From Euglena gracilis (Eukaryota): 64,000 nt of DNA. Under the pieces are notes generated by a model. The model did not search any database. It was not told where the DNA came from and saw only the letters and a list, made by a program, of their open reading frames with translations. The DNA lies in the NCBI GenBank assembly GCA_039621445.1, contig CP154954.1:27927735-27991734 (forward strand), read 5' to 3'. Below, piece after piece: positions 54,501 to 63,500 of the stretch; the stretch's first letter is position 1, and each line of letters begins with the position of its first letter. Position numbers and translations under genes: made by a program.

Positions 54501-57500
54501 TGGGCGGAATGGCTTCAAAATTGTGCTATGAAACATACTTTGGGGGGATTTTTTTTAAAAAAACACGCTGGCCATTTTTATTGGCTCTGGCGCCTTCGGC
54601 GACCCCCCCCCCTCCCTGAGGGGGATCGAAAATGCCCTAAACCCCCCCAAATACAAACCCCCCCGGTTTTATATTTGGGCGGGAATTTCACGACCCCCGC
54701 GGGGGTTTTATATTTGGGGGGGTTATATTCGGTCGGAAAAATCAACTTTTTGGAGGGACCCAGCAGTCATTTTTTCGGTCCAAATCACAAATATGTCCAC
54801 CCCTGAGGGTCCAAAAATTTCACTTTTTGGGTGGAGGAGCAATTTTCACATTTTTGGGTAAAAATTGAAATCACGCCCGAATATGAGGCCAGGGGAGTTT
54901 GCTCCTTGGGGTGTATTTCTGGCATCTGCACGCAGGGTGCTATTCTGGAGCGTGCCGATTTGCGCGGAGCAGATTTGACTGGGGCCATGGTTGGTGTGCA
55001 TCCCTGCATGCTGATGTGCCACTGCCGTGTAAATGGTGAACCTCAGAGGCTATTATTTATCAAACAGAAAAAAGGAACAGCATTCCAGTGTCTGAGCATA
55101 TGTAGCAAGCCTAAGATGCCAAGGCACCTTTGATGTGTCTTTCCCGCACAACAGTCAGCCCGCGGCTCACTGTGGAGCACCTCTTTTGATTTCTTGCCCC
55201 TGCCCCCGGCCCGTGTGGTTGGCGAGCAGGAGGGTTGCCTCAGGATTTTGGTCCCCAACTGACACACCTACCTGGCGTATCCGCCGAAAGGGAGAGGGGC
55301 CCGAGTTGCCGAGCCCCATTTTTGGACACCCTGACGTCCGGGGGTGGATCTCGAGACCCGGGCTCGTCCTGCCCCCCCCCCCCCGCAGATGGGCTGGTCA
55401 AGGCGTTCGACGGGGCCCCGGACTGCGGCGCCGGCACGCTGGTCGCCCTGTCCAGCGACGGCCGGCTGGTGGCGTCGTGCGCCGACGAGCGCCACGTGCG
55501 CCTCTCCCTCGCCGCCACCGGTGTGGGGAGGCGGGGCAGGCGGGGATGGGCGAGAGGGCAGGCCAAGGAGCAAACAAAGAATTTCCGGAAGCCAACGGAG
55601 GTCCTTTCCCATCAGGTCCTCCCCAGTGGTCAGTGGTCAGAAAGAACATAACAATTCTGTCTGGGGAGTGTCATGCCTGTAGCACATCGCTGCTTCGCTC
55701 CACACTTGTCGCTGCATTCCCTGGCAGGGGAGACGCTGCGCACCATCGCCACGGACTCTGTGAAGTGCCTCGCCCTGTCCCCGGACGGCTTCACCCTGGT
55801 CGCCATCTCCAAGGAGCGCGTGGTGCGGCTGTGGAAGACGTCCTCCGGTACCCGCCCCACCCCTTTCCATTCCACCGTCACTGATATCTCTGCCAATGTC
55901 GGCCATGGCAGTAAGAAAGCAAGTGGCGCTCACCGTGTCCGGCGCTGTCCTCGGCGCAGGCGAGCTCATCAAGCGGTTGACGGTCGCCCCGAAAGGCGTC
56001 ACCAGCATCGCTGTTTCCGGCGGCCAGCGCTGTCCCCCGCCTGCTCTCCTGACCGAACACACACCCTTTGGTGGTTTCGAGAGGGTGCGTTTGGGCCATT
56101 GGATCCCCTCAGGGGGATTCAGTTCAACCCAAACAAAGCAAGGCAATCAGAGCGTTGGAATGAATCACCTCTCTCCGGGGCAAACAGCTGGGCTTTAGCA
56201 GCTTGCCTTCTCCCTGTGGGCCGTGGAGACCTTCCATCCAGCTTGTGCCCAGACACACTCTGGTGGGTGGTTAGTTTGAGGTTTGGGGTCTTGGTTTGTT
56301 GGTTGGTTTTGGGGTGTAAGGGGGGACGGCCCTGCCAGGCGACGCCTCCACCATTGTGTTCGGGTGCAACTACGACCTGGCGCTGGTGTGGAACGCCACT
56401 GCAGGTGCTGCCCGCCCCACCCAAACCCCACTCCCGTGATGTTGATATTGGCTCAATCTTGGTGTCTGGTTTTTTTCTTCAGGTTGGCAGAATGAAGAAC
56501 GGATTGGCGGACCTCCCCTCGCTTTCGCCTGGTCTGTTGCTGAGTCACCATGCGGTCTATCCCCCTCCCCGCAGACCAGCAGGTGTGCTCACTGACCGGC
56601 CACGCGGGCTGCGTGGTCGCCGTCGCCATCTCCCCGGACGCCAGCAGCTGCGCCACGGGCTCCACCGACCGCGGCCTCCGCGTCTTCAACGCCCACGACG
56701 GTCTGCCCCCGTCCCCCAGGGGCCACCGTTTTGCAACGGCTCTACCCACGGGAGGGGGGGTTGCTTGAGGGACCTTCCCCCCCCCCCAACGTCCCTCCAT
56801 CCGCCTCACTCCGCAGGGCGGCTGATCTGTACGATGAAGACCCACTCCGAGACGTTGACCAGCATCGCCATGTCCACCAGCGGCACCTTCGTGGTGTCCG
56901 GGGCGGAGGATGCCGCCATCTGCCTGTGGAGCATGCCAAAGGGTGCGGCCGTTGGCTGCCCCCCCCCTTCCAAGTGTTCAACAGGACTGCGTCCAACAGC
57001 CTGCAAATCTGGACGACGCACTCTGCCAAACTGCACCGTCTGTTGTTTGTTTGATTCTGAAATTGAAACGCACGGCTCGCATTATAAGCCCCCACCCCTA
57101 AACAACCAGCGGGCCTCTGTGCCCACCCACCATCAGGCCCCCCAACACCCCAAATGGTTGGAAAAAAACACTCAAGTTGCATATTTTGTATTTTTTGCAT
57201 AATGAAAATTTTGGGAAACTGGCATTTTTTAGCATTTTTTGCATTTGCATTTTTTTCAGGTGCCCAGCCCCTGGATGGATGGCTGGGCAACCCATCCCCT
57301 CCAACCTGTAGACCTGTCTCCCAACCATATTTTTGAGAATGTTTGCATCTTGCAGGGTGTTTCTTGTGTTTGAAGTTTTTCAGGCTTCTGATCAAAACAT
57401 GTGTCAGCTGGGGTCGAAAACGCCAGTTTTCCCCTGACCCAACCCACCCAGGAAATTATCCTCGGGTCCCGTGCTCGCTAACCCGTCCCTTTGGGGACGT

Positions 57501-60500: not shown

Positions 60501-63500
60501 ATTAGGTATCCGGACATTTCCTTTGATTTTGCATCATTTTCGAGAAATTTTGAAAACGTTGATTATGACCCTCCACCCCCCGAAAACGGCTAAGTCGGAC
60601 AATGGGAAAGGTGTACAAAACGGCCATCTGGGCTGAAAAAAACGGCCGTATCTCGGTCTAGGCAGGGAGTTCCGGGAAAATCAAATGCCAGTAGATAGGG
60701 CTTCAATTTAGGTTTCCGGACATTTCTTTTGATTTGGCTTCATTTTGGAGATATTTTGAAAATTGACATTTTTTTTGGCCGAAATGGCAGAGTCCAAAGG
60801 GTGGGGGGCTTAAAAAGGGGGGGGGTCGATCCTACCCAGTTTGGACTCCTTCGCGCGTGAATAACTTGGGCCTGGCGGGGAGTTGGGGGTCAAACCCAGG
60901 TGATTCGGAAACCGAAATACACTCGCTCGCGACTGGAAAAAAAAATCTGGGAACCGGGCCGGGATCATGGTGATAATCCGTTGGTTCTCCCGGTGGCCCC
61001 GACCCGGGGGGGGGGGGGCGGGCGAGGGGGGGGTTCGCCAGGGGTGGGCTTCGCTCTTACCCTAAAGGGATGAGAGCTCAGCGACCCCTATCACCTATAA
61101 ACCCCCCCTCGGGCCGACCAACCAAACCAGATCATATAACCCCACCCCTGGGGAAGAATAATGGAAACTGCCGGGGACGATTTTTTCAGCCGCAAACCAC
61201 CCAAAAACTGATTTTTTGGCAATTTTTTGAGACCGACTATCGTCAAGAATTACATTTCTGACCAAATTTTCCAAAAACTGCCAACTTTGGGGGGTTTCAG
61301 GGTCATTTTGGGGGGATCGGATTCTCACCAACAATTTCGGATCCTATAACCTCCCCCCCCCCCCCCTCCTTCGGCCGACCAACCAAACCGGATCCTATAA
61401 ACCCCGGAGGTTTATAAGTGGGGGGGTTTATTTGTAAGGCGGAAATTTTCACAATTTTTTTTGTTTTTAAAGTCTTTTGTGGTTTTTAAGGTTTTCCAAG
61501 GCAGGTCCAAGGACCGTCCGAGCATCGAACAGGGTCCGAAATCAAAAAAAGTCAAAAAAACATTTTTTGAGTCTGGATGGATGGAAATGTTCCAGCGATG
61601 CCAGAAATAATTTTTTCCTGGAGTTGGCTTTTTTTACCGAGATTTTGCGAGTTCGATTTTGCTTGGTGAATTTTGAGAGAGTTTTTTTTTTATTTAAAGT
61701 TTGTAAGGCTTTTAAGGCGTCTTAAAAACAATGATGCCTGCTGATACACACACGATACACACACCCTGGGGGCATATCGGCTCCAATGCAACCGCCAAGG
61801 GGTTCGTACAACGATTTTGCAGGAGTCCCCAATGCGATCACCAAATAACACCCGCAGGAAAATTTGGCACCAAAACGCTGAGACAGAATAGCACATCCGT
61901 TTTTGGGCAATCATCTGCAACGCTTTACACCTAGAGCTATAACTCTAGACCTCCGTGGTTCTCGCTTCGTATGGTGCATGTGGCTGGATTCTGCCAAAGT
62001 TGTTTCTAGGTTCAATTTGAAGTTATTGGTGTTGCAGGGCATTCTCAGTCGGTTTACCAAATGAAACCAATGAAAACCCTGGGAGGTCCTAACAAAAACC
62101 TCCGAGAGTGATATTGGGGCAGAATTTCTCTGGCCAACGACTCCTCAACCTCACGTTTAACACAATTCTTTTGAGAAGTTGTGTTTTATTAATTTATTGT
62201 ACCCCTTAAACATCTGGATCCTAATCGCACACGTGCCGTATCTTTTCCCCGGAGGTTTTCTTTCGCACTGAACTCTCAACCTTCGGCATTCAAGCCCCCC
62301 CCCCCCCCAGCGCTGATGACCGCCTGCCCACGCGGCGCTGCCTCCCACGGTGGCAGCCTCAGCCTCCGACGACCGGAAGGTCTACCTGTGGGACGTCCCC
62401 CGAGGTCCACCCCCTCTCCCGTCCACCGCTCCTCCGCTGCACGTGTCTGAGGCCGCCACATGGAACTCAGATGCCAGCCTGACACCCCAGCAGCAGGGGG
62501 AGAGCCTCCACACATGGGACCCCCCCCATCCCATACCGCAGGGGAGGTGCTGCACGCGCTGGAGGGGCACGCCGCCACCATCAGCTCCGTGGCGCTGGCG
62601 CGGGACGCCTCCCTCGTGGTCAGCGGCTCCCACGACTACGAGGCCCGCGTGTGGGTGGTGGCCACCGGTGTGCCCCGGACCCTGGGGTTGGGTTTGATTC
62701 GATCTGGGTCCTTGCCGGCATGGGGCTTGTCCCAGATGAGCAGGTAAACCCCATGTCGGCAACCTGGAAACCGCCTCAGAAAGGAAGTCCTAAAGTAGGG
62801 ACCAAATCGAAAGCAATCCTCCTCCTCAGGTTTTCGATGCAAATTCAGGGGGGGCTATATGGTTTTTGGGATGCTCTTTGACACATATTTGGGATGCTCT
62901 CAAACATCTGTTTTATCCATCTTTTTATTCATTTAATAGGTTTCATATACCTCGAGACATATCTGGTGAAACCAAGTGTCAGCGACCTGGCTTGTTATCA
63001 CAGGGATTACTTTTGTCCTTTTTTTCCGACGTGAAATCATGATCAACCTTTTTGCAGCAAATACAGACGCTTTGCCAAAAGGTTTTGCCCACAGTGGAGT
63101 ATTTTCCCGCTTTTGTCAAAGTTTCATACTCAACAATGGATCAATGCAGTTCTGTAGGGGACCCAATCCCCCAGGGGGGGGGTCCAGCCAGCCAGCAGCC
63201 CAAATTCGGGCTGGGAGCCCCCCCCCGGGGGGGTCGAGTGAAATAAAGTTGGGTCCAGCCTGGCCGGAGGCCGGGCCAGCCTGCCGCAGGCTGGCCAGCC
63301 AAATGGGCAACCCAGCTCACCTATCCCTGCATTTTTTCAGTAATTAGGCTGTTCCTCCAGTCCCGATCCAGCCTTGATCTAGCTCCATCCATCAAAATGT
63401 CGAAAATGGCAAAAAAAATTCAGAATTTTTTGTTTTTCATCGACCCAGCCCAGCCCAGCCCCCTCCAGCCCCGAACCCCCCCCTCCCCCCCCCCTATACC

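What the first reader, a model, noticed from the sequence alone, without database searches (positions are those of the whole stretch)
56022..62345. Non-conventional introns appear younger than the canonical introns they sit between
Two WD40 units are split by paired-end introns at different internal positions (after nt 62 and nt 67). The halves still sum to exactly 126 nt, while sister repeats are unsplit. This points to insertion after the repeat exons had duplicated. The 56022 intron retains flank similarity CCGGCGGC/CAGGCGAC (6/8, allowing for the extra N6 base).
Basis: partly seen in the sequence, partly recalled or inferred. Interest (0 to 1): 0.7.

Follow-up and report, generated by a model that had tools for sequence, protein, structure and literature searches.

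The report
Two late nonconventional introns, Euglena WD40 gene
Two Euglena-type nonconventional introns split two of the ten one-exon WD40 repeats of a large gene and are removed from the mRNA; they most likely arrived after the repeat array and its ordinary introns, which is the pattern already described for euglenids.

Summary
On the + strand, a WD40 array is encoded one unit per exon. In 9 of the 10 unit-to-unit boundaries seen, a GT-AG intron sits at the same phase-1 position. Unit 3 is split 62+64 nt by a 319-nt intron (56022-56340). Unit 8 is split 67+59 nt by a 2701-nt intron (59645-62345).

Both introns carry the published Euglena nonconventional code (N3-CAG ... CTG-N5/6). Their end pairing is the strongest of the 12 introns tested. 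RNA-derived contigs from two studies hold exactly 126 nt where each split unit lies. An E. longa orthologue protein runs across both sites without an indel.

"Inserted after the array formed" is supported by parsimony, but it is a weak bound on age. The units are only 10-39% identical in protein, and the array is shared 1:1 with E. longa, so absolute youth is untested.

- Intron 1 can also be read as GC..AG at one of its five equivalent borders.
- Intron 2 breaks the purine rule at the downstream exon.
- Neither intron belongs to a detectable repeat family.
- A third non-GT intron sits 2 nt from a canonical position (63862), so intron type does not equal age.

The general claim has been in print since 2013. 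This is a new example of a known kind.

The parts
55389..55520 (+). WD40 unit A exon (132 nt), unsplit
55521..55727 (+). GT-AG intron, phase 1, unit boundary
   Evidence: absent from RNA contigs
55728..55847 (+). WD40 unit B exon (120 nt), unsplit
55848..55959 (+). GT-AG intron, phase 1, unit boundary
55960..56021 (+). unit C, 5' half (62 nt)
   Evidence: (depth)
56022..56340 (+). Nonconventional intron 1 (319 nt). It has N3-CAG at the 5' end and CTG-N6 at the 3' end, and the downstream exon starts with G. Borders slide -3..+1 over a 4-nt direct repeat; slide -2 reads GC..AG.
   Evidence: removed in RNA contigs; single-copy depth in DNA run X20; no relative in the window
56341..56404 (+). unit C, 3' half (64 nt)
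56405..56574 (+). GT-AG intron, phase 1
56575..56700 (+). WD40 unit D exon (126 nt)
   Evidence: PF00400 30.8 bits, cutoff 27
56701..56816 (+). GT-AG intron, phase 1
56817..56942 (+). WD40 unit E exon (126 nt)
56943..57639 (+). GT-AG intron, phase 1
57640..57765 (+). WD40 unit F exon (126 nt)
   Evidence: PF00400 36.5 bits
57766..58198 (+). GT-AG intron, phase 1
58199..58324 (+). WD40 unit G exon (126 nt)
58325..59577 (+). GT-AG intron, phase 1 (holds dispersed repeats)
59578..59644 (+). unit I, 5' half (67 nt)
59645..62345 (+). Nonconventional intron 2 (2701 nt). It has N3-CAG at the 5' end and CTG-N5 at the 3' end. The borders do not slide. The downstream exon starts with C.
   Evidence: removed in RNA contigs; raw RNA depth 0 in bin 61901-62187
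59764..61428 (.). Dispersed high-copy repeat nested inside intron 2, bounded by 20-nt inverted repeats (95% complementary).
   Evidence: pairs I4, I5; about 80% identity to 41547-42969 minus strand, and to 12663-13070; depth up to about 1.5 million against about 45 baseline in X20
62346..62404 (+). unit I, 3' half (59 nt)
62405..62541 (+). GT-AG intron, phase 1
62542..62667 (+). WD40 unit J exon (126 nt)
   Evidence: PF00400 30.1 bits
62668..63737 (+). GT-AG intron, phase 1
63738..63861 (+). WD40 unit K exon, 124 nt as used in RNA
   Evidence: (pieces end at 63861; loose end behind 63861)
63862..64000 (+). Start of a non-GT intron, 2 nt upstream of the canonical boundary. Its 3' end lies outside the window.
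   Evidence: (loose end of X1 record at 63861)

Best explanation
The window holds most of a large Euglena nuclear gene, at least 35.4-64 kb on the + strand. Its C-terminal WD40 propellers are encoded one repeat per exon, separated by spliceosomal GT-AG introns that all cut after the first base of the boundary codon.

Two of the ten units seen are also interrupted inside the repeat by euglenid nonconventional introns. In these introns, inverted-repeat ends (CAG at +4 to +6, CTG 5-6 nt before the 3' border, extended to stems of about 14-20 bp) bring the borders together, so that they are cut out exactly and the 126-nt unit is restored.

Shown here: the anatomy, the pairing, the match to the published code, and removal from mRNA.

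Inferred: the two introns were gained independently at new sites after the array, with its canonical introns, already existed. Their excision by the nonconventional, probably spliceosome-independent, circle-forming pathway is taken from the literature and was not tested here.
For: 1. Anatomy. The halves are 62+64 and 67+59 nt, in frame and in the same phase as the neighbours.

2. RNA.
- Record 1 of X1 (3760 nt) and record 10 of X3 (3563 nt) come from different studies and lay all eight unsplit exons from 55388 to 63861 colinearly, with 0-1 other letters per piece; the split half-exon pieces were not among the rows listed and are inferred from the record gaps and the bin depths.
- After correcting for ambiguous border bases, the record gap at each split unit is 126 nt.
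- X1 depth in the bins holding the half-exons (5.83, 6.12, 5.54 at a contig depth of 27.9) fits about 57-63 nt of exon per bin.
- Raw RNA run X21 has depth 0 over the unique part of intron 2 (61901-62187), against about 2-7 (both directions summed) in bins holding whole exons.

3. Orthologue. P0002 (1603 aa, an E. longa transcript product) is colinear with the window over residues 147-1388. It crosses both junctions without a gap.

4. Code. Both introns have N3-CAG and CTG-N5/6 with a complementary middle base. None of the 10 GT-AG introns has both motifs at any slide.

5. Pairing. End-duplex energies are -31.9 and -31.8 kcal/mol, against -5.2 to -24.4. The whole-intron fold of intron 1 closes on its ends (z = -2.47; 3 of 100 shuffles fold as well).

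6. Relative order.
- 9 of 10 unit boundaries carry GT-AG introns at the homologous phase-1 site.
- The two nonconventional sites are unit-specific and 5 nt apart in aligned coordinates.
- Units C and I are the least similar pair, at 10% amino-acid identity.

7. Literature. Conventional positions are conserved and nonconventional ones are lineage-specific, with 15 gains counted (PMC3935182: abstract and sections 10, 12).
Against: - The exact junction letters were not displayed, so removal rests on contig lengths, bin depths and the orthologue.
- No genome of another euglenid could be searched, so presence or absence of the two introns in orthologues, which is the real test of age, is unknown.
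- The units are very diverged and no intron-to-intron similarity survives. 'After the duplication' may still be ancient.
- Intron 1 reads GC..AG at slide -2, so spliceosomal removal cannot be excluded for it.
- The exon after intron 2 starts with C. The knock-in tests of PMC12501133 found that a purine is preferred there and that an A-to-C change gave an unstable transcript (section 9).
- Neither intron has any relative in the window. Intron 1 and both ends of intron 2 lie at single-copy depth in DNA run X20, so there is no trace of a donor element.
- The non-GT intron at 63862 sits at a canonical position shifted by 2 nt. This suggests some nonconventional introns are old introns that changed type.
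Confidence: 0.75

Rival explanations
1. Intron 1 is an ordinary spliceosomal GC-AG intron, or a hybrid of the two types, whose end pairing is incidental. Only intron 2 is truly nonconventional.
For: At slide -2 the intron is 56020-56338 with GC..AG borders and gives the same mRNA. PMC12501133 reports 0.8% of E. agilis introns with both kinds of motif (section 11). GC-rich ends pair fairly well by chance: the shuffle mean is -22.2 kcal/mol.
Against: All four code features (N3-CAG, CTG-N6, complementary middle base, purine at the exon start) are met at slide 0. Its end duplex (-31.9 kcal/mol) is the strongest of the 12 introns tested and is reached by 3 of 300 shuffles. The paper judges such hybrids to be processed by the noncanonical machinery.
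Confidence: 0.1
2. The split state is ancestral. The founding repeat unit already had an internal nonconventional intron, which was lost from most units and slid by 5 nt between units C and I.
For: Both sites fall in the same part of the repeat, 5 nt apart in the alignment. By my hand estimate, two random sites in 126 nt lie that close about 9% of the time.
Against: It needs 8 precise losses in the window alone, all sparing the adjacent GT-AG introns, plus a 5-nt slide with no indel. C and I are the least similar units at 10% amino-acid identity. Intron 2 cannot slide at all.
Confidence: 0.04
3. The relative order cannot be read. The boundary GT-AG introns were gained in parallel at a recurring proto-splice site after the array existed, so they need not be older than the two nonconventional introns.
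For: Every boundary has G|G or G|A around the cut, a sequence that could act as a recurrent target. No similarity between the boundary introns survives.
Against: Nine independent gains at the same phase and codon are far less parsimonious than copying the intron along with the exon. In euglenid tubulin genes no conventional gain was counted against 15 nonconventional gains (PMC3935182, section 12).
Confidence: 0.06
4. The introns arose by intronisation of former coding sequence or by internal duplication, not by insertion of foreign DNA.
For: No donor family was found. Intron 2 has no flanking direct repeat.
Against: The halves sum to exactly the unit length, and the E. longa protein has no extra residues at either site. 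No coding sequence is therefore missing or in excess. The intron sequences show no WD40-like frame.
Confidence: 0.03

Closest known systems
Euglenid nonconventional introns (Euglena noncanonical splicing code, PMC12501133; E. gracilis survey, PMC11170887)
   Same: Both introns have CAG at +4 to +6, CTG followed by 5-6 nt at the 3' end, extended terminal pairing and non-GT-AG borders. Their lengths fall within the reported range of dozens to thousands of nt. They sit in the same gene as conventional introns.
   Different: The downstream exon of intron 2 starts with a pyrimidine. Intron 1 also has a GC..AG reading. The excision chemistry (circles, timing) was not tested here.
Lineage-specific gain of nonconventional introns against conserved conventional introns (tubA/tubB of 20 euglenids, PMC3935182)
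   Same: The contrast is the same: conventional introns sit at shared (here, repeat-homologous) positions and nonconventional ones at unique positions.
   Different: Here the comparison is between repeat units inside one gene, not between species. It dates the gains only relative to an old array.
MITE-like or transposon-derived introns (introners; review PMC11282704)
   Same: Both have terminal inverted repeats, and intron 1 has a short flanking direct repeat.
   Different: No second copy of either intron was found in the window or at 95% likeness in DNA run X20. Intron 2 has no flanking repeat. The only transposon-like element found is nested inside intron 2 and has different ends.
Intermediate or hybrid euglenid introns (PMC4770533, listing and abstract start only; PMC12501133 section 11)
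   Same: Intron 1 combines a possible GC..AG border with nonconventional pairing. The intron at 63862 sits beside a decayed canonical site.
   Different: Nothing here shows which machinery removes them, and the 3' end of the 63862 intron is outside the window.

Membership tests
Euglenid nonconventional intron | Borders are not GT/GC-AG | tested here: inconclusive
   Intron 2 has GC..CC borders and no slide, so the feature is met. Intron 1 is GG..GC at slide 0 but GC..AG at slide -2.
Euglenid nonconventional intron | CDG at +4 to +6 after a 3-nt spacer | tested here: met
   Both introns have CAG at +4 to +6; the rule is from PMC12501133, sections 8 and 11.
Euglenid nonconventional intron | CH'G followed by 5-6 nt before the 3' border, with its middle base complementary to the 5' motif | tested here: met
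   Intron 1 has CTG-N6 and intron 2 has CTG-N5, with A:T in the middle.
Euglenid nonconventional intron | Purine as the first base of the downstream exon | tested here: not met
   Intron 1 has G, so it is met. Intron 2 has C, so it is not met. The paper calls this a preference, not an absolute rule.
Euglenid nonconventional intron | Stable pairing that brings the two ends together | tested here: met
   End-duplex energies are -31.9 and -31.8 kcal/mol against -5.2 to -24.4 for 10 GT-AG introns. The fold of intron 1 closes on its ends.
Euglenid nonconventional intron | Precisely removed from mature mRNA | tested here: met
   RNA contigs of 2 studies hold 126 nt at each split unit. The orthologue protein is gap-free across both sites. 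The junction letters were not seen.
Euglenid nonconventional intron | Removed after conventional introns and released as a full-length circle | not testable with these tools
   Known from PMC6221363 (listing and abstract start) and from passages of PMC11282704. The single read-laying run gave no intron-level resolution.
MITE-like or introner element | Many related copies in the genome | tested here: not met
   blastn of each intron against the 64-kb window found no relative for intron 1 or for the ends of intron 2. X20 DNA depth over them is about 45, the single-copy level. The whole genome was not available.
MITE-like or introner element | Target-site duplication flanking the element | tested here: inconclusive
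   Intron 1 has a 4-nt direct repeat, which I estimate by hand at about 3% by chance. Intron 2 has none. Such repeats flank 84.4% of E. agilis introns of both types.
WD40 repeat (PF00400) | Score above Pfam's gathering cutoff | tested here: met
   Units D, F and J score 30.8, 36.5 and 30.1 bits against a cutoff of 27. The orthologue P0002 scores 274 bits with 8 stretches. With a leave-out profile of my own, the joined unit I scores 39.3 bits full-length and the joined unit C only 11.9.

The most novel reading that the evidence does not exclude
The exon-per-repeat array works as an internal clock and records two routes to nonconventional introns within one gene. The first route is de novo insertion into the same inter-strand loop of two unrelated units, 5 nt apart, which hints at a preferred target. 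The second is in-place conversion of an old boundary GT-AG intron into a nonconventionally excised one. At 63862 the canonical site has decayed to G|GC, the cut has moved 2 nt upstream, and the mRNA has lost the boundary glycine that the E. longa orthologue keeps.
Probability: 0.2. Interest if true: 0.5.

Novelty: new member of a known kind. Interest (0 to 1): 0.25.

Why it matters
The origin of euglenid nonconventional introns is still open. The published ideas are a MITE-like origin or conversion from conventional introns (PMC3935182; discussion of PMC12501133).

This locus is a clean, RNA-supported case in which repeat homology inside one gene shows two unit-specific nonconventional introns among position-conserved GT-AG introns. 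It gives two concrete sites for presence/absence typing across Euglena species.

It adds an example and does not change the picture. The contrast between conserved conventional and lineage-specific nonconventional introns was published in 2013.

Tried and rejected
- **Whole genome.** None is held for this window, so no paralogue search was possible.
- **Sequencing-run search.** No RNA holder was listed on record. The runs used as RNA (X1, X3) are labelled 'RNA?' and are judged RNA-derived only because their contigs lack all the introns.
- **Joint table.** It was filled by repeat joints of DNA run X20. The joints of the two introns were not among the rows shown, and the cap (1 call) barred a second lay.
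- **Earlier findings of this scan.** Nothing was held.
- **Pfam on upstream ORF pieces.** There were no hits for 47632-48114, 48797-49096, 50172-50492, 44763-45443 or 50632-51279. The pentapeptide match (19.8 bits) fell just under its cutoff (20.2 bits).
- **First crude regex exon scan.** Too noisy to use.
- **Spliced-alignment script with typed peptide anchors.** The question was then answered with anchors computed inside the script.
- **Search for 'GGOE00000000'.** It found no paper; 'GGOE01' did.
- **Ideas rejected.**
  - Intron 2 as a whole is a transposon. Only its middle, 59764-61428, is a dispersed repeat.
  - The upstream intron 54994-55388 is noncanonical.
- **Not seen.** Supplementary files of the papers were not opened. 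Datasets S7 and S8 and the SI figures of PMC12501133 may hold motif frequencies, for example for pyrimidine exon starts, that bear on intron 2.

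
Full report
**What is there**

The window is GC-rich eukaryotic DNA. From 55389 to 63861 the + strand carries ten WD40-like units, one per exon.
- Pfam places units D, F and J above the WD40 gathering score: 30.8, 36.5 and 30.1 bits against a cutoff of 27.
- Nine of the ten unit-to-unit boundaries seen carry GT-AG introns that all cut after the first base of the boundary codon, which is Gly in 8 cases and Asp in 1.
- The 3' ends of these introns are C-rich, as described for E. gracilis conventional introns (PMC11170887, abstract).

**The observation**

- Unit C is 55960-56021 (62 nt) plus 56341-56404 (64 nt), split by a 319-nt intron.
- Unit I is 59578-59644 (67 nt) plus 62346-62404 (59 nt), split by a 2701-nt intron.
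- Both sums are 126 nt, in the phase of the neighbouring exons.
- The other eight units in the window are unsplit.

In aligned unit coordinates the two sites are 5 nt apart. One lies between codons 20 and 21; the other lies inside codon 22.

**Are the halves joined?**

No whole genome is held. One search listed runs of one coded organism, and I laid four of them on 55300-63900.
- Two transcript-like contigs from different studies (X1 record 1, 3760 nt; X3 record 10, 3563 nt) lay all eight unsplit exons colinearly with 0-1 other letters per piece; the split half-exon pieces were not among the rows listed.
- From their record coordinates, and allowing for border bases that fit on either side, each contig holds exactly 126 nt between exon B and unit D, and 126 nt between unit G and unit J.
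- X1 depth in the bins that hold only half-exons fits about 57-63 nt of exon per bin.
- The raw RNA run X21 has no depth over the unique 3' part of intron 2.
- The joint table was swamped by repeat joints of DNA run X20, so I did not see the junction letters.

There is independent support from a protein search. Using unit F as the query returned P0002, a 1603-aa product of a record with prefix GGOE01. A paper passage assigns that prefix to E. longa.
- P0002 is colinear with the window from 38215 to 63862.
- It crosses both split sites without a gap.

**What kind of introns?**

The published code is 5'-N3-CDG ... CH'G-N5-6 | purine (PMC12501133: abstract and sections 5, 8, 9, 11, 12).
- Intron 1 meets every item, but only at slide 0 of its five equivalent border positions.
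- Intron 2 cannot slide. It meets the code except that the downstream exon begins with C.
- None of the ten GT-AG introns has both motifs.

The end duplexes are -31.9 and -31.8 kcal/mol, against -5.2 to -24.4 for the GT-AG introns. Because the ends are GC-rich, shuffles come fairly close: 3 of 300 and 12 of 300 reach the observed value. The fold of the whole of intron 1 closes on its ends.

One caveat: at slide -2 intron 1 reads GC..AG. It could therefore belong to the small 'both motifs' class, which the paper puts at 0.8% of introns and assigns to the noncanonical pathway.

**Are they mobile-element copies?**

- Intron 1 has no relative in the 64-kb window and lies at single-copy depth, about 46-48, in DNA run X20.
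- Intron 2 is inflated by a nested dispersed repeat (59764-61428). This repeat has its own 20-nt inverted ends, is about 80% identical to copies at 41547-42969 and 12663-13070, and reaches very high depth in X20.
- The two ends of intron 2 are unique, and X20 contigs cover them at depth 35-43.
Intron 2 has none. Such repeats flank 84.4% of E. agilis introns of both types.

A transposon origin is thus neither shown nor excluded.

**Relative age**

One shared boundary position in 9 of 10 boundaries is best explained by copying the intron along with the exon. Two unit-specific internal sites in the least similar pair of units (10% amino-acid identity) are best explained by two later gains.

The bound is weak, however.
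- The units are 10-39% identical in protein and 38-60% in DNA.
- No similarity survives between the boundary introns.
- Every unit has its own 79-93% identical counterpart in the E. longa protein. The array therefore predates that split.
- Whether the two introns also predate the split cannot be told from a protein.

**Wider context**

Spliced alignment of P0002 to the window examined 30 junctions. It recovered all the RNA-supported borders, which served as a positive control.
- 15 junctions are GT-AG, almost all in the 3' half of the gene.
- 5 meet the nonconventional code without a conventional alternative.
- 1 meets both (intron 1).
- 5 are neither.
- 4 are unclear.

The upstream calls rest on a 50-85% identical orthologue, and no RNA was laid there.

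The RNA contigs leave the window at 63861, 2 nt before the expected boundary. There the genome reads G|GC instead of G|GT. The mRNA there is one residue shorter than the E. longa protein. This looks like a boundary intron that changed type, so nonconventional does not simply mean young.

**Comparison and verdict**

The contrast between conserved conventional and lineage-specific nonconventional introns, the count of 15 gains, and the MITE-like hypothesis are all in PMC3935182 (abstract and sections 10, 12). They are repeated in PMC11282704 (passages) and in the discussion of PMC12501133.

This locus is a well-supported new example with a neat intragenic logic. It is not a new kind of thing. 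I did not find the repeat-array argument in the sections I read, but I ran no dedicated literature search for it.

Noticed in passing
window 63862-64000: The intron after unit K does not start with GT. RNA contigs leave the window at 63861, 2 nt upstream of the canonical boundary, where the genome reads G|GC. The mRNA is one residue shorter here than the E. longa orthologue. This may be a conventional intron that turned nonconventional. It does not fit N3-CDG, and its 3' end is outside the window.
   Followed up: partly
window 59764-61428 (also 41547-42969 minus strand, 12663-13070): A dispersed high-copy element with 20-nt terminal inverted repeats and an internal 158-nt tandem repeat (59901-60343, 2.8 copies). 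It is nested in intron 2. Depth in DNA run X20 reaches about 1.5 million against about 45 baseline.
   Followed up: partly
window 43600-50200: By alignment to the E. longa orthologue, most introns of the 5' half of the gene are not GT-AG. About 5 fit the nonconventional code and 5 fit neither type. The 3' half is almost all GT-AG. No RNA was laid here.
   Followed up: partly
window 35454-64000: The gene spans at least 28.5 kb of the window and runs off its end. The orthologue has about 14 WD40 units (two propellers), a short pentapeptide-repeat stretch (51995-52117, 54936-54992) and an N-terminal part with no Pfam match for the pieces tried.
   Followed up: partly
window 55521-55727 and 62668-63737: Two GT-AG introns have unusually strong end pairing (-24.4 and -24.2 kcal/mol) although they lack the CAG/CTG motifs. 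Shuffles reach these values in 57 and 33 of 300.
   Followed up: no
window 58576-58613, 59075-59142, 46670-46853: An 11-nt-period T-rich repeat recurs in several introns of the gene.
   Followed up: no
window 55300-57138: The DNA contig of run X20 differs from the window by 20 letters and 10 gaps over 1839 nt. Some of the same variants appear in the raw RNA run X21, which points to allelic or strain variation. Both introns are present in X20.
   Followed up: no
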